Below are positions 1-62,935 of a stretch of 64,000 nucleotides of DNA, piece by piece. Position numbers and translations under genes: made by a program. The stretch comes from Candidatus Nanoarchaeia archaeon (GTDB lineage Archaea > Nanobdellota > Nanobdellia > WJKC01). The DNA lies in the NCBI GenBank assembly GCA_041653515.1, contig JBAZFG010000002.1:125632-189631 (forward strand), given 5' to 3'. Each line of letters starts with the position of its first letter. Position 1 is the first letter of the stretch. The notes under the pieces were generated by a model. That model was not told the origin of the DNA. It worked only from the letters and a program-made list of their open reading frames with translations, and ran no database searches.

Positions 1-198
1 AAATATAACTGCGGCAAGCTAATCAGACCATTCATAAAAAAACACAAAAAGGAAGGGGTTAAAAGATTATTGTATAAAAAGTCATTTATAAGTTTTGAAT
101 CATTAAAAAAAGAACCAATTACTTATATGGGCTTTTTATTTATGAAATCTCTGGAGTTTACTGCGTGGTGCTTTGGTATCCTAAGAAGCTTTTTCTGA
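1..198 (+). CDS. 3' end of an ORF entering from upstream of the window (65 codons, no recognisable domain)
   Basis: Frame 1 is open from base 1 to TGA at 196-198. It overlaps the convergent radical SAM gene by 18 nt, as most convergent pairs here do. Confidence 0.25.
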   Translation, partial: KYNCGKLIRPFIKKHKKEGVKRLLYKKSFISFESLKKEPITYMGFLFMKSLEFTAWCFGILRSFF

Positions 199-1704
199 TT
201 TATTACCAGCAATTTTTAACTGCCTTGGTTTAAGTAAATCACTTGTTAGATAAGTTTTTAGTTTTTCAATGCTAAACTTCAAGTTATTGAAACTCATAAG
301 TTTGGGCAATATGTTACTGCAAAAGAAGATTGGATTTAATATATGTTTGATTCTTGTTTTATAAAATCTTTGTCTTGCTTCACCAACCAATTTGTTTAAT
401 TCACTTTCACTGAACTTTTTAGTTGGATAATAAGCATAAGATGTTTCTGCATCAGGAATTTCACTATTTAGCAATCCTTCTTTTTTGTATATATCATACA
501 ACTCAGTTCCTGTATAAGGTTGTGCGATATAAAATATTGCGTGGTCTATTCCAGATTCACAAGCATACTTAATCGTTTTTTCTATATCATCACGTGTTTC
601 ATAGGGGAATCCAATTATAAAATTAGCAGTAGTCCAAATACCTTTTTTGTTCATATATCTAATTAATCTTTTTGTTTTTTCAAGGTCAACAGGTTTTCCA
701 ATGAACTTTAATGTATTCTCAGAGCCGGATTCAATAGGCATACACATTCTATAAAACCCTGCTTTCTTCATTATATCTATTGTTTCTTCATCAAGAATCC
801 ATACACTTAATCCTGCAGGTGCGTTTAAAGTAATCTTCAAATTAGCTTTAATTATCAAATTGCATACTTCTTTAACTCTTTTTTTGTTAAGTATAAATGA
901 GTCGTCATAGATTACTATCTCTTTAGCGCCATATTTGTTATGTAATTCCATTATTTCTTTGAATACTCTTTTTGCAGAGTGAGGCCTCCATCTTCTTCTC
1001 CACATAGTTTTAGTGCTGCAGAAGATGCAGTTGTACGGGCAGCCTCTGCTTGTGACCATGGTACAAATCGGCTGGTTTAAAGCATAATAAAAAGTTTCTT
1101 TACCGTTTTTCATGTAAAAATCCATGTCAAGTGCATCTCTGTCCGGCAATGGAAGTGTATCAATATTATTAATTAGTGGTCTATCTTTGTTTATTATTAC
1201 TCTTCCATTACTTTTGTATGTTAATCCTAACACATTCTTTAAACTTTTCTTGTTACTAATAGCATTGAGTAGCTCTAGAGTTGTTATTTCACCTTCACCT
1301 CTTATTATGTAATCTATATAATTTAGTTTTATCAGGTTCTCATGTTCCATTGTTGGGTGAACCCCGCCGAGGATTATCTTTATAGACTTAAAATTGTCTT
1401 TCAGTACTTTGGCCAAATTAAGAGCATCATCTTTATGTATTGTAAAATTGCTTGATATGCCAATAATATCCGGTTTTATTTTATTTATTTCATTAAAAAT
1501 GTTTTTGTTGTTTATACCCACCCTGTATAAATCTTTCTTTATTCTTGTAACCTTGTTTTGATTTAAGGCTATACAGTCAATTATCTTAACTTTATGTCCG
1601 TTCTTTTTTAAAACTGCAGATATGTATGCTAAACCAAGAGGTTCAGTTATGGTTAATTTTGGGTATTTGCTTATTATTGAGGGTTGTATTAATGCTATTT
1701 TCAT
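181..1704 (-). CDS. Class B (B12-binding domain) radical SAM enzyme
   Basis: CxxxCxxC cluster motif in SRGCPYNCIFCS. The N-terminal half looks like a B12-binding Rossmann domain (LGLAYISAVLKKNGHKVKIID, IIGISS, ILGGVHPT). ATGA overlap with the upstream gene. Confidence 0.8.
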   Translation of the reverse strand: MKIALIQPSIISKYPKLTITEPLGLAYISAVLKKNGHKVKIIDCIALNQNKVTRIKKDLYRVGINNKNIFNEINKIKPDIIGISSNFTIHKDDALNLAKVLKDNFKSIKIILGGVHPTMEHENLIKLNYIDYIIRGEGEITTLELLNAISNKKSLKNVLGLTYKSNGRVIINKDRPLINNIDTLPLPDRDALDMDFYMKNGKETFYYALNQPICTMVTSRGCPYNCIFCSTKTMWRRRWRPHSAKRVFKEIMELHNKYGAKEIVIYDDSFILNKKRVKEVCNLIIKANLKITLNAPAGLSVWILDEETIDIMKKAGFYRMCMPIESGSENTLKFIGKPVDLEKTKRLIRYMNKKGIWTTANFIIGFPYETRDDIEKTIKYACESGIDHAIFYIAQPYTGTELYDIYKKEGLLNSEIPDAETSYAYYPTKKFSESELNKLVGEARQRFYKTRIKHILNPIFFCSNILPKLMSFNNLKFSIEKLKTYLTSDLLKPRQLKIAGNKSEKAS

Positions 1705-20312: not shown

Positions 20313-21041
20313 ATGATTAATAAAGCTGTTATTCTTGCCGGCGGTAAGGGAACCCGCATCGCTAACCCTGACATGCCTAAAGCCATGATTAAACTTAACG
20401 GAACCCCGATACTCGAAAACACCCTGCAATTGCTCGGCGGCTGCGGCATTAACGAGGTATTCATGTTAGTCCATTACCTTAAAGAGCAGATTATTGGTTA
20501 CTTTGGCAGTGATTTTAATGGAATGAAAATTAATTATGTCAACGTTCATGAAATCTTGAAATATGACCAGCCTATTGGTATCGCTGACGTGCTCGGCGTA
20601 ATGGATGGCCGCATTAACGAGCCATTCTTAATGATTCTTGGCGATGAAGTTTACGCTGGCACTAAGCACCCTGATATGCTTAAATCATTTAATCCTGTTT
20701 ATGACGCGATGATTGGTGTCATGCGCACTACTGATGAGCGCGCAATAAAGAAGAATTATACTCTGCGGGTTGATGATGCCTTTAATGTCACTGACCTTGA
20801 AGAGAAGCCTGATGCGCCTTGGAATGACTTGCTTGGCTGCGGCACTTACATCTTTACCCCTAAGGTCTTTGATTATATCAGGCAGACACCGTTGTCTGCT
20901 AAGAGCGGCCGCCGAGAGATTACTGACACGCTTAAGGTGATTGCGGCTAATGGCTTGCTCGCTGCCTTTGACCTTGGCGGCAGTTACGTCAATATTAATT
21001 ATAAAGAAGACATTGCCCTTGCTGAAAAACTTTTTAAGTAG
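20313..21041 (+). CDS. Sugar-1-phosphate nucleotidyltransferase
   Basis: KAVILAGGKGTRI signature; 242 aa single-domain form. Confidence 0.8.
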   Translation: MINKAVILAGGKGTRIANPDMPKAMIKLNGTPILENTLQLLGGCGINEVFMLVHYLKEQIIGYFGSDFNGMKINYVNVHEILKYDQPIGIADVLGVMDGRINEPFLMILGDEVYAGTKHPDMLKSFNPVYDAMIGVMRTTDERAIKKNYTLRVDDAFNVTDLEEKPDAPWNDLLGCGTYIFTPKVFDYIRQTPLSAKSGRREITDTLKVIAANGLLAAFDLGGSYVNINYKEDIALAEKLFK

Positions 21042-21050
21042 CCCACCCGA

Positions 21051-22289
21051 TTGTTTTACTTAATGAAGGTATGCATTGTTTGTGATTACTTGCCTGAATA
21101 CCATGATACTTGGGGTGGGGGTGAGAAAGCCTCAATCAGCATTGCCCGTTTACTGGCAAGTAAAGGCGAGGCTGTGTCAGTGGTAACTAAGAAACCAAAT
21201 AAGCCTGTTAAAGAGTTGTTTAAGCATTATTCTTTAAGGACTACTGAGGACTTCCTTGGCAGTAAGGCTGGTCTTTATTTCTCGCGCTTCAAGTCAATCT
21301 GGGTTCCGTTTGATTTAATCACTTATTTCTCCGCGCTAAAACTATTCAGGCGTATCAAGCCTGACATTATTAGTCTTGGCAATTTCCGCGAGTTATCACT
21401 TTCTGTTGTCCTTGCCGCGCACAAGCTTAACATACCAGTTGTTTATTCGGTTTATGATTACTGGTTATTCTGCCCTAAGATTGATTTAGTTGATAATAAT
21501 GGTTCTTGCAGTGCCAATTGCAATAAGTGTATTTCAGGCGAGCGCTTTGGCTCATTCAAGCGCTTGTTGGTGCCTTTAAGGAATTTTATTTTTAACCGGA
21601 TTAGTTTTGACCGCGTGATTGCATTGTCAGATAACTCGCGTCAGTTAATAGCCCGGCACGGCGTTAATAAGAATAAGTTAAGGGTTGTCCCGTTGCCGTT
21701 TGGTGACTTAAAGACTGACTTGAAGTCAAGGGTTGACCCTAATCTGATATTATTCATGGGCTGGGTTCATCACCGGAAGGGCCTTAAAATCCTTGTTCAG
21801 GCGATGAACTTGCTTGCCAAGTCAAACCCTAAGGCAAGGCTCGTTGCGCTTGGAATGCCAGCTGATAAGTCTTACGAAACTGCTGTCAGGTCAATCATGG
21901 GTGGTAACGTTGAGTTAGTTATTGGCCGTAAACCGCTTGATGAGGTTAAAAAGTTAGTTGCCCGCGCAGGTATTATTGTTATCCCGGAACAATGGGCTAA
22001 CATGTCGCCGGTGCTGCTTATCGAGTCTATGTTTAATGCCAAGCCAATCATTGCGAGCAGGGTTGGGGGCATCCCGTCATTTATCAAGCATGGTGAGAGC
22101 GGCTTGCTCGCCTGCCATGACAAGCCTGATGACTTCGCGCGACAAATTAAGTTATTGCTTGACAGCCCATCACTGGCCAAGCGCTTTGGGCTTAAAGCCC
22201 GGGAGCAGGCGCTTGATAAATTTAATAAGAACAAGGTTTATTTCAAGCTAATGAGTGTTTATGGCGGTTTACTCAAGCAAAAAGCCTGA
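21051..22289 (+). CDS. GT4 glycosyltransferase
   Basis: GT-B layout with the C-terminal block IPEQWANMSPVLLIESMFNAKPIIASRVGGIP. The likely start is the ATG at 21063 (MKVCIV). Confidence 0.8.
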   Translation: MFYLMKVCIVCDYLPEYHDTWGGGEKASISIARLLASKGEAVSVVTKKPNKPVKELFKHYSLRTTEDFLGSKAGLYFSRFKSIWVPFDLITYFSALKLFRRIKPDIISLGNFRELSLSVVLAAHKLNIPVVYSVYDYWLFCPKIDLVDNNGSCSANCNKCISGERFGSFKRLLVPLRNFIFNRISFDRVIALSDNSRQLIARHGVNKNKLRVVPLPFGDLKTDLKSRVDPNLILFMGWVHHRKGLKILVQAMNLLAKSNPKARLVALGMPADKSYETAVRSIMGGNVELVIGRKPLDEVKKLVARAGIIVIPEQWANMSPVLLIESMFNAKPIIASRVGGIPSFIKHGESGLLACHDKPDDFARQIKLLLDSPSLAKRFGLKAREQALDKFNKNKVYFKLMSVYGGLLKQKA

Positions 22290-23286
22290 AGAAGTTTATG
22301 GCAAGTTATTCTCCGATGTTAAGGGCAAGCGGGTAATAATTAAGCCTAACTTAGTTACTGACTTGCCGGCTAATAGCGGCGTCACCACTGACCTGCGCTT
22401 AGTGTCAAAACTAATTAAGTTCCTTAAGGGTCGTGGCGCCAAAGTAATTGTGGCTGAATCAGGTCTTGCTCACACTGATAGTATCATTAAGAAACTTAAA
22501 CCATCATTTAAAGTGGTTAACCTTGACAACTGTGATCGCGTGCCTGTCAAGTCACTGACTGGCTTGATATTAAAGGAGTTCCGCCTGCCAAAAATCGTTG
22601 TTGAAGCGGACTTAATCATTAGTTTTGCTAAGATGAAGACTCACGCTCTCACTACTGTCACGCTGTCAATCAAGAACTTATTTGGCTTGTTATGTCAGGG
22701 CGAGCGGAAGAAATCTCACGTGCAGGGATTAAATGAGTCAATTGTTGATTTATTCTCAGCCCTGCCAAAAGTAGTTGGTTTGGTTGATGGCCTGATCGCT
22801 CTTGACGGCAAGTTCGGGCCAGTCAGCGGTTCGCCCCGCAAAGTAGGGCTGGTCATTGGCTCAACCGACCCGCTTGCTTGTGATTCTTATTGCGCTAAAT
22901 TAATGGGTGCTAACCCTAATAAAATCACTCACATGCGCTTGTGCGCTAAAAATTGTCTTGGCAGTTTTGATGATACTGATGTTAAGGGCTTGTCATTTGA
23001 CTTGCCGCCTTTCTTCATGCCATTAGCCAGCAAGTTATTGGAGCGTTATCGCCGGCGCAAGCCTTATTTGATGAGCCCTGATAATTGCGTTAAGTGCCTT
23101 GAGTGCGTTAATAATTGTCCTGTTAAGGCTATCTCAAAGTCAATTGAGTTTGATTACAATAAGTGTATTGGCTGCATGGTCTGCGTTGAGTCATGCAAGC
23201 ATAAAGCGCTTGGGTATAAACTTAGCCTGCCAACGAGGGTGATTCATTACTTGTTTAAGACTTTCTTTAAGAGACGGCGCAAGTAA
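22255..23286 (+). CDS. DUF362 protein with C-terminal 2x[4Fe-4S] ferredoxin domain
   Basis: DUF362 blocks (IIKPNLV, KMKTHALTTVTLSIKNLFG, DGLIALDG). Two ferredoxin motifs: CVKCLECVNNCP and CIGCMVCVESC. Confidence 0.7.
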   Translation: MFMAVYSSKKPEEVYGKLFSDVKGKRVIIKPNLVTDLPANSGVTTDLRLVSKLIKFLKGRGAKVIVAESGLAHTDSIIKKLKPSFKVVNLDNCDRVPVKSLTGLILKEFRLPKIVVEADLIISFAKMKTHALTTVTLSIKNLFGLLCQGERKKSHVQGLNESIVDLFSALPKVVGLVDGLIALDGKFGPVSGSPRKVGLVIGSTDPLACDSYCAKLMGANPNKITHMRLCAKNCLGSFDDTDVKGLSFDLPPFFMPLASKLLERYRRRKPYLMSPDNCVKCLECVNNCPVKAISKSIEFDYNKCIGCMVCVESCKHKALGYKLSLPTRVIHYLFKTFFKRRRK

Positions 23287-24356
23287 TACTTTATTGTGTA
23301 AGGCCTCATTGACTGGGTCATCTTGTAGATTGCTTCCTGCTGTTCTTTTGGGTAAGCATCTGATTGTGGTTTGGCGTGCTCGCCATAAAAAGTCATGTCT
23401 GCCCGGCTATCATCAGTTGGCGGGATAAAATAAGAGAAGTGGCCGTTGACGCCTTCATTTTTAACCCACTCAACGTTCGCTAGGTCACTCTTGTATGTTG
23501 AGCCCGGCAAGCCAATGATGAAATAACAATTAACACTCCTGAAGTATTTTTTCGCAATCCTGACCGCTTTCTTCACTTGTTCTGGTTTCAAGCCTTTCTT
23601 AATGTTCTTTAATACAACCAGACTTAGGCTCTCCACCCCGAAACTAACGTGATTGCAGCCGGAGCCTGAGATTGCCTTGGCTTGCTCCTTGTTGAATAAG
23701 TCAGCGCGCAAGCCGTTGGTGCAAAACCACTTTAAGTTTAATGGTTTTATCAATTCGCAAAACTCAATAACCCTCTTGTTGACTGCGTTAAAGCAGTCAT
23801 CAATTATCTGAAATGACTTAATGTCATACTCCTTTTTTGCTTTCTTTATTTCTTCATAACAATTCTTGGCGCTTCTCATCCTTAAACGCCTGTTCCTTGA
23901 CGCGCAGTAAATGCACTGGAACGGGCAGCCAAGGCTCGTCAGCACTGGGTAAGCCCACTTGCCGCTTGACCAGTTATCCCTGAACGTCTCGTATGAGTCA
24001 AATAGGGAGTAATCAGGGAATGGCAGTTTGTCATTAAAATCATTGTTAATGTTAACATTGCTCTTGAATTGGTTGAATGGGTAGCAGCACTGGACGTCAA
24101 CAACCCCTGTCACTGACTTGACTCTTGATTTTGGGTGAGCCCGCTTGTACTCAGCCTTTATCCTTTTACTTTCATTGTAAGCGGCTGAGCGGATTGAGAT
24201 TAGTGCTGTGTCATCATTAACTTTTAAGTACCTTTTTTTTGGTTTTTGCTTAGTATTAAGGTCAATTACCCGGCTTTTCTTGAGCGTGGCAATGTAAGCA
24301 AGGCTCATGTTTGGCAGGTCCCTGTTAATCCCAGAATTAGGGTTTATCAGTATCAT
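23247..24356 (-). CDS. Radical SAM enzyme with reduced B12-binding-like N-terminal domain
   Basis: CxxxCxxC in LGCPFQCIYCAS. N-terminus MILINPN...SLAYIATL resembles the start of class B enzymes. Overlaps the convergent DUF362 gene by 40 nt. Confidence 0.7.
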   Translation of the reverse strand: MILINPNSGINRDLPNMSLAYIATLKKSRVIDLNTKQKPKKRYLKVNDDTALISIRSAAYNESKRIKAEYKRAHPKSRVKSVTGVVDVQCCYPFNQFKSNVNINNDFNDKLPFPDYSLFDSYETFRDNWSSGKWAYPVLTSLGCPFQCIYCASRNRRLRMRSAKNCYEEIKKAKKEYDIKSFQIIDDCFNAVNKRVIEFCELIKPLNLKWFCTNGLRADLFNKEQAKAISGSGCNHVSFGVESLSLVVLKNIKKGLKPEQVKKAVRIAKKYFRSVNCYFIIGLPGSTYKSDLANVEWVKNEGVNGHFSYFIPPTDDSRADMTFYGEHAKPQSDAYPKEQQEAIYKMTQSMRPYTIKYYLRRLLKKVLNK

Positions 24357-25465
24357 TTTTTCCTGACCGTTTTTTTGTAGATTGAGCAGTTAGCGCATGG
24401 GGCTGGCACTTTGCCTTTCCTTAAGCCTTCCCTTAATTCTTTGTAGTCCTTCCCAAACCAAATCTCTTTTAGTGAAAGTTCCTTAATGTTGCCAAGCGAT
24501 GTTTTCTTCTGGAAATCCCTTTGATTGGCCTCGTTTCCGACGCAGCAGGGAATAACATGTCCTGTTACGAATACGAAAGGCATTATCCATTCAATGCACT
24601 TATCCATTGGTTCCTTGTCATCTGGTACGTTGGCCCCATAGTGCATTCTTATACCATAAGAATTGGCCTTAGCCTTGACTTGCCTAAAATAAGTGTTAGG
24701 CACTTTAGTTACGAGGTTCTTTATCTCCTTGAATGGGTGTAATAATAATGTGTATATGACTTTAACGTCATCATTCATCTTAATGCTGTTAACGTAGTCC
24801 ATGAATAACGGCACTTCCTTGACGTTTATTTTGTTGACAATGAAGTGAAAGTTGACTTCCGGGAATGGTTTTTTCATTTCCTTTTTTAGTTCTATTAGCT
24901 TCTTGATGTTCTTTGTTACTACGTCAAAATTTGAGCCAACCCTTATTTTCTCGTAAGTCTCCTTTGTGGCTCCGTCAATCGAAGCCAGTATCCTATCAAC
25001 TCCTAATTCAATCAGTTTTCTTGCAATCTTTTCATTGAGGAAGATAAATGAGTCATATATCTCGACGTATATCTTCTTTTTCTTGACGTACTCTATCATC
25101 TTAAGGTAATCTTTATTTAGGAACGCTTCCCCTATCCCTGTCAGACCTATCCATTTCAAGTGTGGGAACTGGTCAATTATTCTCTTAAATTCCTCAAAGT
25201 TCATGTCCCTTGCGGGTTCACTCCAGTACGTGTGCTCGCATATTTTGCATTTGAGGTTGCACTTGGTTGTGACTTCTATTTCCATGAAAGGGGGGGTTAT
25301 ATTAAAGAACCTGCCAAGTTTTATTAGTAGCAGGTTGCTCCAGAATTTTGATTGCCATAATAAGTAGAACCATGTGTAATTATATGTTGCTTTTAGTCCT
25401 TGATGCCTTAACATGTTGTAAATAAATTTTGAGTACCTCTTGACTTTCATTATTACCTGTTTCAT
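24353..25465 (-). CDS. Radical SAM enzyme with C-terminal SPASM/twitch-like Cys-rich domain
   Basis: CNLKCKICEH cluster motif. C-terminal GHVIPCCVG...LGNIKELSLKEIW...CANCSIY. Confidence 0.75.
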   Translation of the reverse strand: MKQVIMKVKRYSKFIYNMLRHQGLKATYNYTWFYLLWQSKFWSNLLLIKLGRFFNITPPFMEIEVTTKCNLKCKICEHTYWSEPARDMNFEEFKRIIDQFPHLKWIGLTGIGEAFLNKDYLKMIEYVKKKKIYVEIYDSFIFLNEKIARKLIELGVDRILASIDGATKETYEKIRVGSNFDVVTKNIKKLIELKKEMKKPFPEVNFHFIVNKINVKEVPLFMDYVNSIKMNDDVKVIYTLLLHPFKEIKNLVTKVPNTYFRQVKAKANSYGIRMHYGANVPDDKEPMDKCIEWIMPFVFVTGHVIPCCVGNEANQRDFQKKTSLGNIKELSLKEIWFGKDYKELREGLRKGKVPAPCANCSIYKKTVRKK

Positions 25466-25490
25466 TATGATCTTTTATGATTATTTTCTT

Positions 25491-26573
25491 TTAAATCTTT
25501 TTATTGGCTTTGAATTCCTTTGAGTACTTTCTGGTTAGTTTAATGTATTCATTTCCGTACTCGTGGCTTGGCTCTATCTCGGTTCCCTCGTGCCACTCGT
25601 TGAAGCTAGTGATTGACACTACTTGAGGGTTCTTCTTTATAGCTGCTTCCCAGCAGCGTTTGTAAACACTGCCTTTTTCCCTTGACACGACTGCGTAATG
25701 CTTGATGCCGAGTGTTATTAATATCCACTTGAAGTCGCCCCTGGCTAATCGCTTGAGTAATTTGACAAATAAAGTCCACACCCGTTTGATTGAGAAATTG
25801 CTTTTTAACCCTTCAGCTAACTCGCCGATGAATTCTTTTGGTATCTCTTTGACCCCTGAGTCATCATAGCCTGGCATGACTGTCAGCACGCAAATCTTCT
25901 TGTGCTTGTCGCACATGCCTTTTATTTTTGAGTACTCAGTGAACATGTTTTTCTTGTTGAATAAAGCGTCAAGGTAAGTGTACCTGAAAGCGCCGTCAAA
26001 ATTACTAACCCATTCTTCATACTTGGAGTCAACTATTAAGTAAGCGCCGGTCGCTTTCTTAACTAAATCCCTGACTACCAGCCACTTGTTGAGTCCTAAT
26101 TGCATTAGCACTCTTGCGTATAATATGATGAACGGCTTGCCGTTAACCCTGAAAAATGATTTGTGCTTGCCATACTTGTTAATCAGTCCAATTAAGTGTT
26201 TGGCCACTTTCTCCGGCTCAAAACTATTGGGCAGGTCCTCGTAATAGAATGTTAGTTTAACGCCGGGCGTCTTGTCAGCGATGCTTAGCATTTTTTCGAA
26301 GTTTTTGTGCGTGTGAGTCATCTTCTGCTCCCAGATTGAGACGAGTAACGCGTTAATGCCTGCTTCTTTTGCCATCCTTAAGTGCTCTTTTATCACTGCT
26401 GGGTCGCTTGAGTCATAAGCGCCGAGTAACGGGTGGTCGGCTGACGCAATATCAGGCAAGCCCTTTATTTTCCTGTCAGGGTCATGGCCGCCTTGTTTCC
26501 ATTTAAGCCATTGCTTTGAGTGTTTTGGGCTGCCAAACCATGGGTAATAAAAAGCGAGCACTTTCTTGTTCAT
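25491..26573 (-). CDS. GH99-like glycoside hydrolase domain protein (endo-alpha-mannosidase-like fold), no signal peptide seen
   Basis: N-terminal AFYYPWFGSP, PLLGAYDSSDP, and C-terminal ITSFNEWHEGTEIEPS resemble GH99 family blocks. Assigned from memory of the family only. Confidence 0.5.
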   Translation of the reverse strand: MNKKVLAFYYPWFGSPKHSKQWLKWKQGGHDPDRKIKGLPDIASADHPLLGAYDSSDPAVIKEHLRMAKEAGINALLVSIWEQKMTHTHKNFEKMLSIADKTPGVKLTFYYEDLPNSFEPEKVAKHLIGLINKYGKHKSFFRVNGKPFIILYARVLMQLGLNKWLVVRDLVKKATGAYLIVDSKYEEWVSNFDGAFRYTYLDALFNKKNMFTEYSKIKGMCDKHKKICVLTVMPGYDDSGVKEIPKEFIGELAEGLKSNFSIKRVWTLFVKLLKRLARGDFKWILITLGIKHYAVVSREKGSVYKRCWEAAIKKNPQVVSITSFNEWHEGTEIEPSHEYGNEYIKLTRKYSKEFKANKKI

Positions 26574-27634
26574 AGAACTTTTTTGAAATTGCTTCCATTT
26601 ATAATTATTCTGTTTAATCCTTTCATGTGCGCTTTGACCCCAAATCTTTCTGCGTTTTTTTTGCAGTCGCTTGCCTTGAATTTATTATGCCAGTTCTGCA
26701 ATACCCTGATTAAGTTCTCCTCGTATGGCTCGTTTATTAGCACGCCTGTTTTGTTAGTGATTGTTTCCTTGAACCCTCCGTCATTGACTGCGATGACTGG
26801 TTTGCCTGACGCATTAGCTTCAACTGGCACTAAGCCAAAGTCCTCGCCTTTGTTTAATTGGATGACTGCCTTGCACTCTGAGTAATATTTTCTTAATTCA
26901 GTCTCACTTAACCGGCCGAGTAACTTAATGTTTTTGTTAGCCATTGCTTTTAGTTCTTCCATCATCATGCCAGTGCCTGCTATCATTAATTCTTGTCCTG
27001 TCTTATTGAACACTTTGATTAGTGTGTCAATGCGCTTGACTGGCTCGAGTCTTGATACGCAAAAGAAGTAATCTTTTGACTTGGCTTGTTTGTAGTCTTT
27101 TAGTTCGGTTGGCGGGTAAATCACTATTATTTTTTTGTCTGGGTAAATCTTTTGCATAATATTTTTCATGTAATAACTGTTAGCGATTACAACATCAATT
27201 TTCTTGACTGCTTTTTGGTCTGCTCTTATTGTTAATTTACTTACTAAGTTGACTAACCAATTCTTTTTTTCCAATCCATAACTGACTTTGTTTGGGTGTT
27301 CTGAGTACCAGATTGTTTTTTTACCTGACTTGCTTGCAACAACGTGACTGTTAGGTGTTTCAGCAAGCACTAAATCATATTGCTTTAGGAACGAGCCTTT
27401 TTTCAGGCACCAGAATAAGTTTACTATTGTCCTAAACATTGGCAGTTTTCGTGCCCAAGGCATTAATTCTATTATTCTTGCTTCCTTGAAGTATTCTGGA
27501 TAAACTTTTGAGTCATAGACGCTGGTATAAATTGTCACGTCATGTTTTTTTGATAATTCCTGATAGTGAATACCTGTTACTTTTTCTGCCCCGCCAATAT
27601 TTGTTAGGAATGGCACGATTATTGCTATTTTCAC
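26570..27634 (-). CDS. GT4 glycosyltransferase
   Basis: EDFGLVPVEANASGKPVIAV block and GT-B layout. GTG start gives MKIAIIVP. Confidence 0.8.
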   Translation of the reverse strand: MKIAIIVPFLTNIGGAEKVTGIHYQELSKKHDVTIYTSVYDSKVYPEYFKEARIIELMPWARKLPMFRTIVNLFWCLKKGSFLKQYDLVLAETPNSHVVASKSGKKTIWYSEHPNKVSYGLEKKNWLVNLVSKLTIRADQKAVKKIDVVIANSYYMKNIMQKIYPDKKIIVIYPPTELKDYKQAKSKDYFFCVSRLEPVKRIDTLIKVFNKTGQELMIAGTGMMMEELKAMANKNIKLLGRLSETELRKYYSECKAVIQLNKGEDFGLVPVEANASGKPVIAVNDGGFKETITNKTGVLINEPYEENLIRVLQNWHNKFKASDCKKNAERFGVKAHMKGLNRIIINGSNFKKVL

Positions 27635-32780: not shown

Positions 32781-32820
32781 AAGACCGCCTCTTCTGTTGC
32801 TTTAGCGAAGGCGTGGTCTT
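32781..32820. terminator. Imperfect GC-containing hairpin between convergent genes
   Basis: aagaccgcct (32781-32790) pairs with aggcgtggtctt (32809-32820), leaving a 2-nt bulge. This is the only convergent junction in the window with a real spacer. Confidence 0.3.
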
Positions 32821-33880
32821 ATACTTTTAACCCACCACGTCTGCATAATGGCCTGTATAGTGTTTTTAGCCAGCTGTTCTGGCAGACGTTCTTGGCGTAT
32901 TTCTTGCCGTGCAGGTTGTACCAGATGATTGTGTTATAGATCGTGGCGCCCCAGGCTGGTATCTTGAATATTGGTGTGTCAAAGATTAACCATTTGAGGC
33001 CTGGCACTTTCCTCAAGCTCATCTCTAGTAAAAATATTGGTTGTGAGTTGGCTTTAGGAGGCTTGAATGGGTCAGTGTAGAATTTATCCCCGATAATCTC
33101 GTATTTCATCTCACCCACACCCATCTCTTGAGCATTAATGAGCATTTTATTATCATCTGTTGGTAAGCCCATGAAATTACTGCCTGCAGTGTCAATTGAT
33201 ACTCGGTCGTGGCTAGCCATTATTAAGTCGCATTGTTTTGGCACGCCTGTGCGTGGCGCGTTGCCTTCCATGACCATTGTAACATCCATGACTGCGAACT
33301 GGATTTTCTTTAAGTAAGCGTTAATGTCAGCAATACACTGATTAGCCCTAGTGTGGTATTGGTGTCTGACTCGTGGCACAATGCCCCACTGGTTCTTTAA
33401 GCCGCCGGTTAATCGGGTTAAGCAGTGAGTTTTTAGTATTGGCAGTGTGATTATGACATCAGCGTCAACAACTGTTTTAGGTAAGTCCAGTTCCTTGAAT
33501 ACTTTGCCACCAACCTTGACTTTAACCATCTTATCCTTGCTAAGGTTGATGAATGGCGCGTTGTATTTCTCGCCTAATTGTTTGAAACCCCATGCTTGGA
33601 TTGCTTCATCCAAGTGCTCTGATGCTGCTAGGTCAGCGTCGCCCATAGTGATTTGGGCTTTAGGCAATTCTTTTCTTATCTTCATTAAGACTGCCTCAAC
33701 CACCCAAGGACTGGTGCACTGGCCAGGCACTACTTGGTTGCTCATAGCATTAACTTTAAGGAATATCTTATTGCCTTTAACGTATTTTTTCCAGTCAGCT
33801 AATTCCATTGCGCGCCAAACTGTCTCGAACACGCCTGTACGGCTTCTCTTCTTGATTTTACAGAAAGCTACTTTACTCAT
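32819..33880 (-). CDS. DUF362 protein (no ferredoxin domain), paralogue of 22255-23286
   Basis: FLKVNAM, LPILKTHCLTRLTGGLKNQWG and VMEGNAPRTG blocks, typical of DUF362. Confidence 0.7.
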   Translation of the reverse strand: MSKVAFCKIKKRSRTGVFETVWRAMELADWKKYVKGNKIFLKVNAMSNQVVPGQCTSPWVVEAVLMKIRKELPKAQITMGDADLAASEHLDEAIQAWGFKQLGEKYNAPFINLSKDKMVKVKVGGKVFKELDLPKTVVDADVIITLPILKTHCLTRLTGGLKNQWGIVPRVRHQYHTRANQCIADINAYLKKIQFAVMDVTMVMEGNAPRTGVPKQCDLIMASHDRVSIDTAGSNFMGLPTDDNKMLINAQEMGVGEMKYEIIGDKFYTDPFKPPKANSQPIFLLEMSLRKVPGLKWLIFDTPIFKIPAWGATIYNTIIWYNLHGKKYAKNVCQNSWLKTLYRPLCRRGGLKV

Positions 33881-36945: not shown

Positions 36946-38328
36946 TTAGTTTAAGAGAATCTTTGAAGGTTTAAAGAAATTATTCAGAATGTTCCTAATA
37001 GGTGCTTCCCTGTGTGAGATATTATTGAATATATAAGCTAGTTTGGTAAAGTCTATTAACTCATCGAATGGAATCTTTTCTTTCAGCAGGTAAGTGCCTT
37101 TCCTAATCATGTTGTCATAATCAAGCCATTCCATTGGTTTGATAACACCTTTCTTCTTGAGTAATTCATAATAATCTGCGCCAGGGTCAGGGGTAAATAC
37201 GTAGAAATGAGCAAAGTTAGTTTTATTCTTAATGGCAAAATTAATTGTTTTAATTATAGAATCCCTTGTTTCACCTGGTGCCCCAATGATGTGGCTTGCA
37301 CTAATTTCTATACCAAAAGCCTTTAATTTTTCAATACCTTGGCTTATCTGCCTGATTGTTAAGCATTTGTTCATTGACTTAAGTATTTCATCATCCCCTG
37401 ATTCAACCCCAACAAAAGCTCTCTTGTAACCTGTTTTATGCATTATATTGAGCAAGTCATTATTTATTGTGTCAAGCCGAGTGTTACTGCCCCATGTGAT
37501 GTCAAGTTTTTCTTTTTTAATTAGACTTGTGAATTCAGTGATAAACTTATGATTAGCTGTCATTGTATCATCATAAAACATAATCTTATTGGATTTAGTG
37601 ACGTCAATAACCTGTTTTATTTCATTGATAACACTTGATGGGCTTCTAAAATTAACCTTTTTTCCAAACATTTTTTTAGAAGCACAAAACTTGCAACCAA
37701 AAGGGCATCCTCTTGAAGCTATTAATACATTATAAGTATCTTCTGCCCCAAGTTTTCTATGATTACTTGGTTTGTATTTATCTAATGGGAATAAATCTCT
37801 GGCTGGGAAAGGCAGGTCATTCAGGTCAGTACTGGTTGGTTTTGTGGGGTTTAGGATGATCTTCTTGCCTTTTTTGAATACAATACCATTAACCTCTTCT
37901 AACCTTTGGTTAGCCAGTATCTTAACAATGGTTTCTTCTCCTTCACCTAGCACGCCTATATCAAAACAGTTTAATGAAATGGTTTCTAAAGGTTCTGATG
38001 TGATGTGAATGCCGCCTAGAATTATCTTTGCATTAGTTTTTGATTTTATTTCACTGGCTATCTTAATCGTATTCTTCATAAGAGGGGTTGTTGATGTAAG
38101 ACCTATAAACTTAATGTCCTTTGAGTTAATCCTTTTTATTACATCCTCAATAGTGAATTCTTCAACATTTAAGTCAAGGCATTCAACCCTATAACCTGCT
38201 TTTCTTACGCTTGCGGCAATGTATGCTAGTCCAAGGGGTAAGCTTACTGTTTGGTTTTCCTGTCTTGAGATGTTGAAATGTTTTTTTTCAAAAAAATCTT
38301 TTTGCGGGGGATTAATGAGCAATAACAT
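36946..38328 (-). CDS. Class B (B12-binding domain) radical SAM enzyme
   Basis: SRGCPFGCKFCAS cluster motif. N-terminal LPLGLAYIAASVRKAGYRVECLD, FIGLTS and ILGGIHIT form the B12-binding-type domain. Markedly AT-rich. Confidence 0.8.
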   Translation of the reverse strand: MLLLINPPQKDFFEKKHFNISRQENQTVSLPLGLAYIAASVRKAGYRVECLDLNVEEFTIEDVIKRINSKDIKFIGLTSTTPLMKNTIKIASEIKSKTNAKIILGGIHITSEPLETISLNCFDIGVLGEGEETIVKILANQRLEEVNGIVFKKGKKIILNPTKPTSTDLNDLPFPARDLFPLDKYKPSNHRKLGAEDTYNVLIASRGCPFGCKFCASKKMFGKKVNFRSPSSVINEIKQVIDVTKSNKIMFYDDTMTANHKFITEFTSLIKKEKLDITWGSNTRLDTINNDLLNIMHKTGYKRAFVGVESGDDEILKSMNKCLTIRQISQGIEKLKAFGIEISASHIIGAPGETRDSIIKTINFAIKNKTNFAHFYVFTPDPGADYYELLKKKGVIKPMEWLDYDNMIRKGTYLLKEKIPFDELIDFTKLAYIFNNISHREAPIRNILNNFFKPSKILLN

Positions 38329-62791: not shown

Positions 62792-62935
62792 GGGCCCGTA
62801 GCGCAGTTTGGATAGCGCGACAGGCTTCTACACTCGACGCTTCGCGTCTCGTTCCGTCCTTCGGACGGCCGCTCGCTTAAAACGAGCGGGGGTGAGGATA
62901 CCTGTAGGTCGTGGGTTCAAATCCCTCCGGGCTCG
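62792..62935 (+). tRNA. tRNA-Arg (anticodon UCU) with a 69-nt intron at the canonical 37/38 position
   Basis: Acceptor GGGCCCG/CGGGCTC, D arm GCGC-agtttggata-GCGC, anticodon stem ACAGG/CCTGT with loop ct-TCT-a, T arm GTGGG-ttcaaat-CCCTC. Exon 1 is 62792-62830, the intron 62831-62899 and exon 2 62900-62935. No encoded CCA. Confidence 0.85.

What the first reader, a model, noticed from the sequence alone, without database searches (positions are those of the whole stretch)
22255..26573. Radical SAM + radical SAM/SPASM + DUF362-ferredoxin + GH99-like module embedded among glycosyltransferases
There are four consecutive genes. The first is a DUF362 protein with a C-terminal 2x[4Fe-4S] ferredoxin domain. 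The second is a radical SAM enzyme with a vestigial B12-like N-terminus. It is translationally coupled (ATGA) to the third, a radical SAM enzyme with a SPASM/twitch-type C-terminal Cys cluster. The fourth is a cytoplasmic GH99-like protein. SPASM enzymes are best known from peptide and cofactor maturation, not glycan assembly. DUF362 has no established function, and a second DUF362 paralogue (32819-33880) lies 6 kb away in the same cluster. The combination of a ferredoxin-type electron donor with two radical enzymes looks like a self-contained redox module. It could act on a sugar, lipid carrier or glycan intermediate. I know of no characterised pathway with this composition.
Basis: inference. 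Interest (0 to 1): 0.6.

Follow-up and report, generated by a model that had tools for sequence, protein, structure and literature searches.

The report
Radical-SAM sugar-tailoring cassette in archaeal glycan island
Two adjacent radical-SAM enzymes in a DPANN archaeon's N-glycosylation island belong to an uncharacterised gene cassette, shared by many anaerobic bacteria and archaea, that most likely makes an unusual activated sugar and attaches it to a surface glycan.

Summary
The four genes and their domains are real, but DUF362-ferredoxin is on the + strand and converges on a minus-strand operon (GT4 > GH99-like > twitch rSAM > short rSAM).

- **Conserved core.** In 79 species-representative genomes anchored on the "SPASM" enzyme, the recurrent partners were:
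  - a sugar-1-phosphate nucleotidyltransferase (51/79; window 20313-21041);
  - a GT4 with an invariant Cys4 motif (30 loci including the window; 21051-22289), or an alternative GT4;
  - either the short rSAM (21 loci) or a CDP-tyvelose-2-epimerase-like SDR (24 loci), never both.
- **Accessory genes.** DUF362-Fd (1/79) and GH99 (2/79) are not core. The DUF362-Fd subclade is still specifically linked: 7/8 contigs carry the rSAM, against 0/35 for background DUF362. Two sister Nanoarchaeia contigs keep the whole gene set.
- **Closest solved relatives.**
  - "SPASM" enzyme: a one-cluster twitch type nearest BtrN and DesII.
  - Short rSAM: a B12-less class-B type nearest AprD4.
  - DUF362: a LarA fold.
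- **Function.** No curated family cut-off is reached and I found no paper on the cassette.

Best reading: an anaerobic NDP-hexose tailoring and transfer module feeding AglB N-glycosylation. The chemistry (epimerisation, oxidation or dehydration) is inferred. I rate it a new variant of a known kind.

The parts
20313..21041 (+). Sugar-1-phosphate nucleotidyltransferase (242 aa). It is the most frequent partner of the twitch rSAM.
   Evidence: PF00483 at 69 bits. The best NCBIfam hit is AglF UTP-glucose-1-P uridylyltransferase, 130 bits, below the 400 cut-off. PDB hits are RmlA, GalU and ManC types. Homologs lie within 10 kb of the twitch rSAM in 51/79 genome loci.
21051..22289 (+). GT4 glycosyltransferase ('GT4x', 412 aa) with an invariant Cys4 motif (C141, C153, C157, C160). 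It is the dedicated transferase of the cassette.
   Evidence: PF00534, PF13439. The ortholog cluster occurs in 30 loci including the window, typically between the short rSAM and the nucleotidyltransferase. The four Cys are invariant in 30/30 members. It never co-occurs with the alternative GT4 'c6'.
22261..23286 (+). DUF362 (LarA-like fold) fused to a C-terminal 2x[4Fe-4S] ferredoxin domain. It is an accessory redox partner. The ORF extends to GTG 22255.
   Evidence: PF04015 at 135 bits plus Fer4 families. Eight ferredoxin Cys are invariant. The AlphaFold model has pLDDT 90, and the top 18 PDB fold matches are all LarA-family racemases. Subclade members sit beside the twitch rSAM cassette in 7/8 contigs, against 0/35 background loci and 0/2 outgroup loci.
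23247..24356 (-). Short radical SAM enzyme (369 aa). It has a class-B (B12-rSAM) type core with a truncated, probably cobalamin-free N-domain.
   Evidence: PF04055 only. hhalign to full B12-rSAMs gives probability 100 with about 70 aa deleted in the B12 domain. Nearest PDB entries are AprD4 6fd2 (E 2e-9) and MgmA 9ccb. The family shows 48-57% identity across phyla. Orthologs lie directly downstream of the twitch rSAM. They are mutually exclusive with the TyvE-like SDR.
24353..25465 (-). Radical SAM enzyme (370 aa) with an N-terminal 3-helix extension and a C-terminal single-cluster twitch domain (Pfam calls it SPASM). This was the anchor for the neighbourhood analysis.
   Evidence: PF04055 and PF13186. 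Invariant residues are C69/C73/C76 plus C290, C307, C308, C357, C360. The only PDB sequence hits are BtrN (E 2e-14) and DesII. The model has pLDDT 89, with fold hits to viperin, DesII, BlsE and BtrN. There are 849 homologs at 48-58% identity across bacteria and archaea. It overlaps the downstream rSAM by ATGA.
25491..26573 (-). Cytoplasmic GH99-like protein (360 aa). It is a lineage-specific accessory of the operon.
   Evidence: PF16317 at 141 bits. BtGH99 4acy matches at E 4e-31, with the catalytic EWHE segment conserved and a 54-aa insertion at 243-296. It is present (duplicated) in sister contigs L080 and L084, but in only 2/79 other loci.
26570..27634 (-). GT4 glycosyltransferase. It is the first gene of the minus-strand operon and overlaps the GH99-like gene by 4 bp.
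   Evidence: PF00534, PF13439. A 59% identical ortholog is present in L080.
36946..38328 (-). Full-length B12-binding radical SAM enzyme (460 aa). It is a probable accessory: B12-rSAMs flank the cassette in many genomes.
   Evidence: PF02310 and PF04055. Best NCBIfam hits are HpnJ, BchE and PhpK, all below cut-off. One or two 28-31% identical B12-rSAMs lie immediately upstream of the twitch rSAM in many loci.
181..1704 (-). Second full-length B12-binding radical SAM enzyme (507 aa) at the edge of the glycosylation island. Its membership is uncertain.
   Evidence: PF02310 and PF04055.
32819..33880 (-). DUF362 paralogue without a ferredoxin domain. A link to the cassette is not shown.
   Evidence: PF04015 at 150 bits. 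It is only 25% identical to DUF362-Fd and groups with generic DUF362.

Best explanation
This is a nucleotide-sugar tailoring and transfer cassette inside an AglB-type N-glycosylation island of a Nanoarchaeia (DPANN) archaeon.

**Proposed route**
1. The nucleotidyltransferase (20313-21041) activates a hexose-1-phosphate to an NDP-hexose.
2. The twitch radical-SAM enzyme (24353-25465) abstracts a hydrogen from a sugar carbon with a 5'-deoxyadenosyl radical. It then does one of two things:
   - it returns a hydrogen from the spare invariant Cys308 to the opposite face, which is epimerisation at an unactivated carbon (my preferred guess); or
   - it passes the electron through its auxiliary [4Fe-4S] cluster, which is BtrN/DesII-like oxidation to a keto-sugar.
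3. The short, B12-less radical-SAM enzyme (23247-24356) does a second radical step. In other genomes that step is carried out by an NAD-dependent CDP-tyvelose-2-epimerase-like enzyme.
4. The DUF362-ferredoxin fusion (22261-23286) exchanges electrons with the twitch enzyme's clusters, or adds a hydride-transfer step.
5. The Cys4-containing GT4 (21051-22289) transfers the resulting rare sugar onto the lipid-linked glycan.
6. The GH99-like protein is a lineage-specific mannoside-processing add-on.

**Shown versus inferred**
- Shown: domain identities, gene linkage, family relationships and the displacement pattern.
- Inferred: the substrate, the reaction type, the electron path and the order of steps.
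For: **Context**
- The window from before 1 kb to about 43 kb is a glycosylation island. It holds two STT3/AglB genes, a Wzx flippase, a GT family-4 (PF00953) initiating transferase, PMM/PGM, a GHMP kinase and several nucleotidyltransferases and GTs.

**Linkage to the twitch rSAM in 79 species-level loci**
- Nucleotidyltransferase in 51/79.
- GT4x in 30 loci including the window, the alternative GT4 in 18, and a nucleotidyltransferase-GT4 fusion in 13.
- Short rSAM orthologs (45-56% identical) lie 8-66 bp downstream on the same strand in 14 of the 20 loci that carry one.

**Displacement**
- The short rSAM occurs in 21 loci and the SDR in 24, never both (Fisher p = 1.8e-4). Adding L080-L087 gives 23 and 28 loci, still with none in common.
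- The SDR's best solved relatives are CDP-tyvelose 2-epimerases (9rl0 at E 6e-51, 1orr at 2e-46).

**Sugar-acting relatives**
- The twitch family's only PDB sequence hits are BtrN and DesII.
- Its Cys307, 357 and 360 align with BtrN ligands C188, C232 and C235. Cys308 is extra and invariant.
- Fold matches include the nucleotide- or sugar-acting enzymes viperin, DesII and BlsE.
- The short rSAM is nearest AprD4, a cobalamin-free diol dehydratase acting on an aminoglycoside sugar.

**DUF362-Fd**
- 7/8 subclade contigs carry the twitch rSAM. The gene is directly upstream of it in L083, L085 (11-bp overlap) and L087.
- Background DUF362 loci give 0/35 and outgroup loci 0/2.

**No room for a peptide substrate**
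- The operon is tight, with 4-bp, 25-bp and 4-bp junctions.
Against: - No biochemical datum exists for any family member, and the nature of the sugar and the reaction are guesses.
- The resemblance to BtrN, DesII and AprD4 is distant (13-18% identity in fold matches). All rSAM enzymes share the core fold, so the fold hits discriminate weakly; SkfB and SuiB, which are peptide maturases, score similarly.
- Mutual exclusivity could reflect two different sugars rather than functional equivalence. The loci are also not phylogenetically independent (several are Brocadiaceae).
- DUF362-Fd is absent from about 98% of cassettes seen from the rSAM side, so it is not needed for the core chemistry.
- No reductase or aminotransferase is consistently linked. 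This argues against a keto-sugar end product but does not prove epimerisation.
- The N-terminal helical extension of the twitch enzyme could mean a membrane- or lipid-linked substrate rather than a soluble NDP-sugar.
Confidence: 0.5

Rival explanations
1. The rSAM enzymes act after transfer, on the lipid-linked or protein-linked glycan or on the dolichol or polyprenol carrier, rather than on a soluble NDP-sugar. Possible reactions are C-methylation, cross-linking or deoxygenation of an assembled glycan. The GT4 and nucleotidyltransferase would simply install the sugar that is later modified.
For: The twitch family has a conserved 50-residue, three-helix N-terminal extension rich in aromatic and hydrophobic residues, which could dock on a membrane or carrier. 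B12-rSAMs, which are typical C-methylases, frequently flank the cassette, and there are two in this island. The lipid-acting rSAM GDGT-MAS appears among the fold hits. The tightest partner is a GT (61/80 loci carry one of three partner GT4 types).
Against: The strong conservation across domains (48-58% identity) fits a small invariant substrate better than lineage-specific glycans. The partner that is displaced by the short rSAM is an NDP-sugar epimerase, which places at least that step at the nucleotide-sugar level. There are no predicted transmembrane segments.
Confidence: 0.25
2. The twitch/SPASM enzyme is a protein or peptide maturase (RiPP-type, anSME-like or metalloenzyme maturase), and its position in glycan islands is incidental.
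For: Pfam SPASM hit. The best NCBIfam hits are maturase families: TIGR04317 tungsten-enzyme maturase at 155 bits and TIGR04311 at 115 bits. SkfB and SuiB rank high in the fold search. One related contig (L081) has a sulfatase 9 kb away.
Against: All NCBIfam scores are far below cut-offs (155 against 380). Only one auxiliary cluster is possible (five Cys). There is no RRE domain or precursor ORF, and the operon junctions of 4 to 25 bp leave no room for one. The neighbours are consistently nucleotide-sugar and GT genes in dozens of phyla.
Confidence: 0.05
3. The four genes named by the first reader (DUF362-Fd, two rSAMs and GH99) form one self-contained, obligatory redox module, with DUF362-Fd as the dedicated electron donor.
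For: The set is kept in three Nanoarchaeia contigs despite rearrangement. The DUF362-Fd subclade is specific for the cassette. The ferredoxin domain is intact.
Against: DUF362-Fd is in 1/79 and GH99 in 2/79 rSAM-anchored loci, so neither is obligatory. DUF362 has an enzyme-like LarA fold with its own invariant K/T/H/K/N/H residues. A ferredoxin-less DUF362 paralogue sits in the same island. GH99 keeps a glycosidase catalytic motif unrelated to redox chemistry.
Confidence: 0.15

Closest known systems
BtrN (2-deoxy-scyllo-inosamine dehydrogenase, butirosin pathway; PDB 4M7T)
   Same: It is a radical SAM enzyme with a single auxiliary [4Fe-4S] cluster in a C-terminal twitch domain. The ligand cysteines align (C307, C357, C360 with BtrN C188, C232, C235). 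It acts on a carbohydrate-like secondary alcohol. It is the best PDB sequence hit of the family profile (E 2e-14).
   Different: Identity is only about 17%. The family here is about 100 residues longer, with a three-helix N-terminal extension. It has an extra invariant Cys308 and a 7-residue GNEAxxR insertion next to the cluster ligand. It is encoded in surface-glycan loci with a nucleotidyltransferase and a GT4, not in an aminoglycoside cluster. Its substrate is unknown.
DesII (TDP-4-amino-4,6-dideoxy-D-glucose deaminase/dehydrogenase; PDB 8HZV)
   Same: It is a radical SAM enzyme that works directly on an NDP-hexose. It is the second PDB sequence hit (E 5e-4) and a top fold hit with the highest TM-score normalised to the query, 0.63.
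   Different: Identity is 15-17%, and the domain architecture differs (DesII chains are 458-510 residues against 370 here). No aminotransferase or 4,6-dehydratase is consistently linked here.
AprD4/AprD3 (radical SAM diol dehydratase plus reductase, apramycin C3' deoxygenation; PDB 6FD2)
   Same: The short rSAM shares the class-B rSAM core. Like AprD4 (from my knowledge of the published work), it lacks a functional cobalamin domain. AprD4 is its best solved relative (E 2e-9) and appears among its NCBIfam hits.
   Different: The NF033070 score is 44 against a cut-off of 500, so it is not a member. The N-domain is truncated by about 70 residues. No AprD3-like reductase is linked. It is paired with a twitch rSAM instead.
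CDP-tyvelose 2-epimerase (TyvE) and TyvE-like NDP-glucose/mannose C2-epimerases (PDB 1ORR, 9RL0)
   Same: A TyvE-like SDR occupies the slot of the short rSAM in 28 cassettes, and the two are never found together. This suggests the same or an equivalent pathway step on an NDP-hexose.
   Different: The protein fold and cofactor are unrelated (NAD against SAM and Fe-S). The window has no TyvE-like gene at all. Equivalence is inferred from the distribution only.
LarA lactate racemase superfamily (nickel-pincer nucleotide enzymes; PDB 5HUQ, 2YJG)
   Same: The DUF362 domain has the same fold: all 18 top PDB fold hits are LarA homologs, E down to 3e-6. It belongs to the same Pfam clan, CL0471 (PMC11770544).
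   Different: There is no detectable sequence similarity, and TM-scores are only about 0.4. It is fused to a 2x[4Fe-4S] ferredoxin. The cofactor is unknown, and I did not look for Lar cofactor-synthesis genes.
GH99 endo-alpha-1,2-mannosidases/mannanases (Bacteroides BT3990, PDB 4ACY)
   Same: The Pfam GH99 hit is above threshold, the match to 4ACY is E 4e-31, and the catalytic EWHE segment is conserved.
   Different: It has no signal peptide and a 54-residue insertion. It is encoded inside a glycan biosynthesis operon, so it may process or transfer rather than degrade. It also resembles the WbsX glycosyltransferase-like family.

Membership tests
Radical SAM superfamily (both rSAM genes) | CX3CX2C motif for the SAM-binding [4Fe-4S] cluster, and a PF04055 match above threshold | tested here: met
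   PF04055 scores 70.3 and 60.0 bits against a cut-off of 29.5. The motifs are C144-x3-C148-x2-C151 (GCPFQCIYC) and C69-x3-C73-x2-C76; the latter is invariant in 26 homologs.
SPASM subfamily (two auxiliary clusters) | Seven-cysteine C-terminal motif able to bind two auxiliary [4Fe-4S] clusters | tested here: not met
   PF13186 matches at 49 bits, but only five C-terminal Cys are conserved: C290, C307, C308, C357, C360. That is enough for one cluster only.
Twitch subfamily (BtrN/MoaA type, one auxiliary cluster) | Four Cys in the abbreviated C-terminal domain that align with the known auxiliary-cluster ligands | tested here: met
   The profile alignment to BtrN places C307, C357 and C360 on BtrN C188, C232 and C235. 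C290 lies 17 residues upstream, where BtrN has C169 (BtrN ligand numbers are from memory of the published structure). NF033640 twitch rSAM scores 86 bits, below the 170 cut-off. Cluster binding itself cannot be tested here.
Tungsten-cofactor oxidoreductase rSAM maturase (TIGR04317) | Score above the curated equivalog cut-off | tested here: not met
   155 bits against a cut-off of 380. No aldehyde:ferredoxin oxidoreductase is in the neighbourhood.
Class B (cobalamin-dependent) radical SAM enzymes, for the short rSAM | N-terminal B12-binding Rossmann domain (PF02310) preceding the rSAM core | tested here: not met
   There is no PF02310 hit. hhalign shows homology to the B12 domain, but about 70 residues are missing. 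It is homologous to class B yet probably cobalamin-free. Cofactor binding cannot be tested here.
AprD4 family radical SAM diol dehydratase (NF033070) | Score above the curated equivalog cut-off | tested here: not met
   43.9 bits against a cut-off of 500. It is the nearest solved structure only.
DUF362 (PF04015) | Pfam match above the gathering score, with the conserved KPN, KTH and KN motifs | tested here: met
   135.3 bits against a cut-off of 24. K28, N30, K126, T127, H128, K138, N139 and H153 are invariant in 41 sequences.
LarA superfamily (nickel-pincer nucleotide racemases/epimerases) | LarA fold | tested here: met
   The top 18 Foldseek PDB hits are all LarA homologs (E 3e-6 to 2e-3, about 250 aligned columns, TM about 0.4). 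DUF362 and DUF2088 share a Pfam clan (PMC11770544).
LarA superfamily (nickel-pincer nucleotide racemases/epimerases) | Cofactor-tethering Lys, Ni-binding His and catalytic His residues | tested here: inconclusive
   A profile search of the PDB did not retrieve LarA, so no residue-level alignment was obtained. The spacing H128-x10-K138-x15-H153 resembles what I recall of LarA H174, K184 and H200, but that is memory and not a test.
2x[4Fe-4S] bacterial-type ferredoxin domain | Two CxxCxxCxxxC(P) motifs | tested here: met
   C276, C279, C282 and C286-P287, plus C302, C305, C308 and C312, are invariant in the subclade. The Fer4, Fer4_7 and Fer4_6 Pfam hits are above their cut-offs.
Glycoside hydrolase family 99 | Pfam GH99 match and the catalytic Glu-Trp-His-Glu segment | tested here: met
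   PF16317 scores 141 bits against a cut-off of 33. ITSFNEWHEGTEIEP aligns with ITSFNEWHEGTQIEP of BtGH99 (the catalytic role of the two Glu is from the literature as I recall it). Activity cannot be tested here.
RiPP maturase system | Adjacent precursor peptide gene and/or an RRE recognition domain | tested here: not met
   Operon junctions are 4 bp, 25 bp and 4 bp. No RRE-type Pfam hit was found. The neighbours are sugar-activation and GT genes in 79 loci.

The most novel reading that the evidence does not exclude
The cassette encodes a previously unknown radical route to a rare hexose for surface glycans of strict anaerobes. In it:
- a twitch radical-SAM enzyme epimerises or oxidises an NDP-hexose at an unactivated carbon;
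- a cobalamin-free class-B radical-SAM enzyme is a radical functional replacement for the NAD-dependent TyvE C2-epimerase;
- a LarA-fold DUF362-ferredoxin fusion is its dedicated redox partner, which would give DUF362 its first function;
- a Cys4 metal-binding GT4 transfers the product.
Probability: 0.15. Interest if true: 0.85.

Novelty: new variant of a known kind. Interest (0 to 1): 0.62.

Why it matters
- **Where radical SAM sugar chemistry is found.** As far as I know, radical SAM tailoring of sugars is known almost only from antibiotic pathways (DesII, BtrN, AprD4, GenK, NeoN). Here two very conserved and unnamed rSAM families sit in primary surface-glycan loci. Each shows about 50% identity across CPR bacteria, Omnitrophota, anammox planctomycetes, magnetotactic Nitrospirae, Elusimicrobia, methanogens, Bathyarchaeota, a Heimdallarchaeota MAG and DPANN. 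They lie next to a nucleotidyltransferase and a dedicated GT.
- **Consequences if the inference holds.** Many uncultured anaerobes would decorate their envelopes or N-glycans with a sugar made by oxygen-sensitive radical chemistry.
- **DUF362.** It would also give DUF362, a large family of unknown function, a concrete and testable partner.
- **Enzyme displacement.** The never-together distribution of the short rSAM and the TyvE-like epimerase would be a natural experiment in non-orthologous enzyme displacement.
- **A way in for experiments.** A cultured carrier exists: Methanospirillum stamsii Pt1.

Tried and rejected
- **Curated family assignment of both rSAMs.** All NCBIfam hits were far below their cut-offs.
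- **Sequence-level link between DUF362 and LarA.** Profile searches of the PDB returned only ferredoxin-domain hits, or nothing relevant once the ferredoxin domain was removed. Only the fold search showed the relationship.
- **Literature.** Five term combinations found no paper on this cassette:
  - radical SAM + SPASM + nucleotide sugar + glycosyltransferase;
  - Kuenenia S-layer glycosylation + radical SAM;
  - tyvelose 2-epimerase + radical SAM;
  - radical SAM + twitch + sugar + epimerase + polysaccharide;
  - a min-terms search around BtrN, NDP-sugar and deoxysugar.
  
  The DUF362 search gave only the Pfam-clan statement and CBM9 fusions.
- **Metagenome scan aimed at the DUF362-Fd subclade.** It used generic DUF362 motifs and returned mostly distant DUF362 genes. 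I reused it as a background control.
- **tRNA detection.** ARAGORN found no tRNA, although Rfam finds a 144-nt, probably intron-containing tRNA.
- **Hypotheses considered and rejected.**
  - RiPP or anSME maturase: there is no precursor and only one auxiliary cluster.
  - Hopanoid HpnJ-like role: 93 bits against a cut-off of 577, and no hopanoid genes.
  - P-methyltransferase (PhpK-like): there is no B12 domain and no phosphonate genes.
  - DesII-type deamination of a 4-amino-4,6-dideoxy sugar: GDP-mannose dehydratase and DegT aminotransferase genes recur in only about 15 and 11 of 80 loci and are not adjacent.
- **9CCB.** The second-best solved relative of the short rSAM turned out to be MgmA, an MCR glutamine methylase, which is not informative.

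Full report
**1. What is in the sequence**

The ORF list gives these genes:

| Coordinates | Strand | Length |
|---|---|---|
| 22255-23286 | + | 343 aa |
| 23247-24356 | - | 369 aa |
| 24353-25465 | - | 370 aa |
| 25491-26573 | - | 360 aa |

- DUF362 (PF04015, 135 bits) with C-terminal 4Fe-4S ferredoxin motifs.
- Radical_SAM alone on the 369-aa protein.
- Radical_SAM plus SPASM on the 370-aa protein.
- GH99 (141 bits) on the 360-aa protein.
- A second DUF362 at 32819-33880 (150 bits) without a ferredoxin domain.

The two rSAM genes overlap by ATGA.

Three corrections to the description are needed.
- The DUF362-ferredoxin gene is on the + strand. It converges on the minus-strand genes, with a 40-bp 3' overlap with the short rSAM.
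- The minus-strand unit is GT4 (26570-27634) > GH99-like > twitch/SPASM rSAM > short rSAM. Its junctions are 4 bp, 25 bp and 4 bp.
- The database protein for DUF362-Fd starts at ATG 22261.

**2. Organism and surroundings**

The twitch rSAM is 100% identical to a protein of a "Candidatus Nanoarchaeia archaeon" MAG, on a 191,793-bp contig. Rfam finds a 144-nt tRNA at 62792-62935, which probably contains an intron.

Most of the window, from before 1 kb to about 43 kb, is a glycosylation island. It contains:
- two STT3/AglB homologs (12863-14770 and 40340-42958);
- a Wzx-type flippase;
- a GT family-4 (PF00953) initiating transferase;
- a GT22/PMT-like enzyme;
- PMM/PGM, a GHMP kinase and four further nucleotidyltransferases (besides 20313-21041);
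- many GT2 and GT4 genes;
- two further full-length B12-binding rSAM genes (36946-38328 and 181-1704).

Housekeeping genes follow: Cdc6/Orc1, FEN1 and LeuRS.

**3. Is the combination conserved?**

The twitch rSAM has 849 detectable homologs. The top 120 are 47-58% identical. The sources that name an organism place them in many bacterial and archaeal phyla.

I aligned 26 of these homologs (A1) and fetched 79 species-representative genome loci with 10-kb flanks. tblastn with the window's proteins, plus an unbiased ORF clustering, gave the following.

| Partner | Loci (of 79, unless noted) |
|---|---|
| Nucleotidyltransferase of the 20313-21041 type | 51 |
| GT4 of the 21051-22289 type ("GT4x") | 30 (including the window) |
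| Alternative GT4 ("c6") | 18 |
| Nucleotidyltransferase-GT4 fusion (DPANN) | 13 |
| Short rSAM orthologs (45-56% identical) | 20, plus the window |
| DUF362-Fd | 1 |
| GH99 | 2 |

In 14 of the 20 genome loci with a short rSAM ortholog, that gene lies 8-66 bp downstream of the twitch gene on the same strand.

Three gene orders recur:
- [B12-rSAM][B12-rSAM] twitch > short rSAM > GT4x > nucleotidyltransferase.
- twitch > c6-GT4 > SDR > nucleotidyltransferase.
- SDR > nucleotidyltransferase > GT4x > twitch.

In the window the first order is split into two convergent units:
- nucleotidyltransferase > GT4x > DUF362-Fd on the + strand;
- GT4 > GH99 > twitch > short rSAM on the - strand.

**4. A displacement pattern**

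The SDR that alternates with the short rSAM is most similar to CDP-tyvelose 2-epimerase. PDB entries 9rl0 and 1orr match at E 6e-51 and 2e-46, and the next SDR class at 9e-36.

- Short rSAM orthologs occur in 21 loci and the TyvE-like SDR in 24, never together (Fisher p = 1.8e-4).
- Adding the loci found later gives 23 and 28, still with none in common. The window itself has no TyvE-like gene.
- GT4x and c6 are likewise mutually exclusive (30 against 18, none in common).

The counts are not corrected for phylogeny.

**5. DUF362-Fd and GH99 seen from their own side**

DUF362-Fd has a small subclade of close relatives: four at 57-61% identity and thirteen at 36-42%. I looked up eight of them.

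- Seven contigs carry a twitch-family rSAM (37-53% identical to the window's) within 9 kb, together with the nucleotidyltransferase, a GT4 and either the short rSAM or the TyvE-like SDR.
- In L083, L085 and L087 the DUF362 gene is directly upstream of the twitch rSAM. In L085 the two genes overlap by 11 bp.
- The eighth contig (L088) places it beside an SDR, a nucleotidyltransferase and a UDP-glucose dehydrogenase.

Three controls were run.
- Two more distant DUF362-Fd proteins sit in unrelated contexts.
- Among 80 generic DUF362 metagenome loci, none of the 35 that are at least 5 kb long has the twitch family.
- 7/8 against 0/35 gives p = 2.5e-7.

L080 and L084 are sister Nanoarchaeia contigs. 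They keep the whole set:

| Gene | Identity to the window |
|---|---|
| Nucleotidyltransferase | 64-66% |
| GT4x | 61% |
| Short rSAM | 68-70% |
| DUF362-Fd | 55-57% |
| GH99-like (two copies) | 55-70% and 34-37% |

In L080 the DUF362 gene has moved to the other end of the operon. GH99 is therefore a lineage-specific addition. DUF362-Fd is a facultative but specific accessory.

**6. What the proteins resemble**

*Twitch rSAM.*
- All NCBIfam hits are below their cut-offs; the best is TIGR04317 at 155 against 380.
- The family profile hits only BtrN (E 2e-14) and DesII (E 5e-4) in the PDB.
- Only five C-terminal Cys are invariant. C307, C357 and C360 align with BtrN's auxiliary-cluster ligands. 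C308 and a GNEAxxR insertion are family-specific.
- It is therefore a one-cluster twitch enzyme, not a two-cluster SPASM enzyme.
- The AlphaFold model (pLDDT 89) has a confident three-helix N-terminal extension.
- Fold hits include viperin, DesII, BlsE and BtrN, but also SkfB and SuiB. This adds little discrimination.

*Short rSAM.*
- It has only PF04055.
- It is homologous over residues 1-314 to full B12-rSAMs, with about 70 residues deleted from the B12 domain.
- Its nearest solved relatives are AprD4 and MgmA.
- The family is as conserved as the twitch family (48-57% identity, 355-406 aa).

*DUF362-Fd.*
- The model has pLDDT 90.
- The top 18 PDB fold matches are all LarA-family racemases. 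This fits the shared Pfam clan noted in PMC11770544.
- No sequence-level match to LarA could be obtained.

*GH99-like protein.*
- It keeps the catalytic EWHE segment, has a 54-residue insertion and lacks a signal peptide.

**7. Interpretation**

The most consistent partners are an enzyme that makes NDP-sugars, an enzyme that uses them, and in half of the cassettes an NDP-sugar C2-epimerase. The closest solved relatives of both rSAMs act on sugars. The operon leaves no room for a peptide substrate.

I therefore read the locus as an NDP-hexose tailoring and transfer cassette feeding the AglB pathway.

The chemistry is inferred. I favour radical epimerisation by the twitch enzyme, with the spare invariant Cys308 as hydrogen donor, by analogy with rSAM epimerases as I recall them. 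BtrN/DesII-like oxidation is the alternative. The short rSAM would carry out the step that the TyvE-like enzyme performs elsewhere.

DUF362-Fd either shuttles electrons to or from the twitch enzyme's clusters or contributes a hydride-transfer step. Its LarA-like fold, its own invariant residues and the ferredoxin-less paralogue argue that it is more than a passive donor.

The main rival is action on the assembled or lipid-linked glycan.

**8. Novelty**

None of the families reaches a curated functional model. Source annotations are generic ("radical SAM protein", "MoaA/NifB/PqqE/SkfB family", "YgiQ"). Five literature queries found nothing on this cassette.

Radical SAM sugar tailoring is a known kind of chemistry, so this is a new variant and not a new category. 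What is new is its setting in primary glycan loci across many anaerobic phyla, the TyvE/rSAM alternation, the Cys4 GT4 and the DUF362-ferredoxin partner.

Noticed in passing
window 21051-22289: The GT4 that travels with the rSAM cassette has four invariant cysteines (C141, C153, C157, C160; motif DYWxFCP...C-x3-8-C-x2-C) in an insertion of its N-terminal domain. They are conserved in 30/30 family members from bacteria and archaea. This is a likely Zn or Fe-S site, which to my knowledge is unusual for GT4 enzymes.
   Followed up: partly
window 24353-25465, compared with L080 6714-7913 and L084 12141-13343: The window's twitch rSAM is only 40% identical to the one in the two sister Nanoarchaeia contigs, whereas the adjacent short rSAM is 68-70% identical. 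The window's copy groups with Patescibacteria, Mariniphaga and Gammaproteobacteria versions. This looks like in-place replacement of one gene of the operon by a xenolog of the same family.
   Followed up: partly
L001-L088 (for example L043 and L051 against L001 and L029): The short rSAM and a CDP-tyvelose-2-epimerase-like SDR never co-occur next to the twitch rSAM (23 against 28 loci, none in common). The two partner GT4 families GT4x and c6 are also mutually exclusive.
   Followed up: yes
L052-L074 (DPANN loci, for example L065 6138-8018 and L074 12947-13657): In many DPANN genomes the twitch rSAM sits beside a 626-aa fusion of a nucleotidyltransferase with a GT4. Nearby genes include 512-aa B12-rSAMs, a second rSAM/SPASM gene, a QueC-like ATPase, a nucleoside 2-deoxyribosyltransferase-like protein and a GT9. 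This is a distinct and richer variant of the cassette.
   Followed up: no
window 181-1704 and 36946-38328: There are two further full-length B12-binding radical SAM genes in the same glycosylation island, making four rSAM genes in 43 kb. The first lies next to two very large proteins in a low-GC stretch (0.27-0.30 over 1-6 kb). One is 909 aa with no Pfam hit, and the other is 950 aa with a weak match to the AftD-like GT-C domain.
   Followed up: no
window 12863-14770 and 40340-42958: There are two divergent STT3/AglB oligosaccharyltransferase paralogues in one island (635 and 872 aa).
   Followed up: no
window 62792-62935: Rfam detects a 144-nt tRNA (49.7 bits) that ARAGORN misses. Its length suggests an intron-containing archaeal tRNA.
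   Followed up: no
window 25491-26573 (residues 243-296): The GH99-like protein carries a 54-residue insertion relative to Bacteroides GH99, just before the catalytic EWHE segment. The sister genomes have two tandem GH99-like paralogues instead of one.
   Followed up: no
A2 alignment members P0155 and P0187 (not in the window): Some generic DUF362 proteins start with twin-arginine (RRDFL) signal peptides. Others are reported fused to CBM9 or dockerin modules (PMC5742341). This hints that DUF362 is a cofactor-containing, carbohydrate-related enzyme family.
   Followed up: no
window 23247-24356 (residues about 86-93): The short rSAM family has a conserved D-x-Q-C-C-Y-P-F motif inside the truncated N-domain, in the consensus of 21 orthologs. 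Its role is unknown.
   Followed up: no
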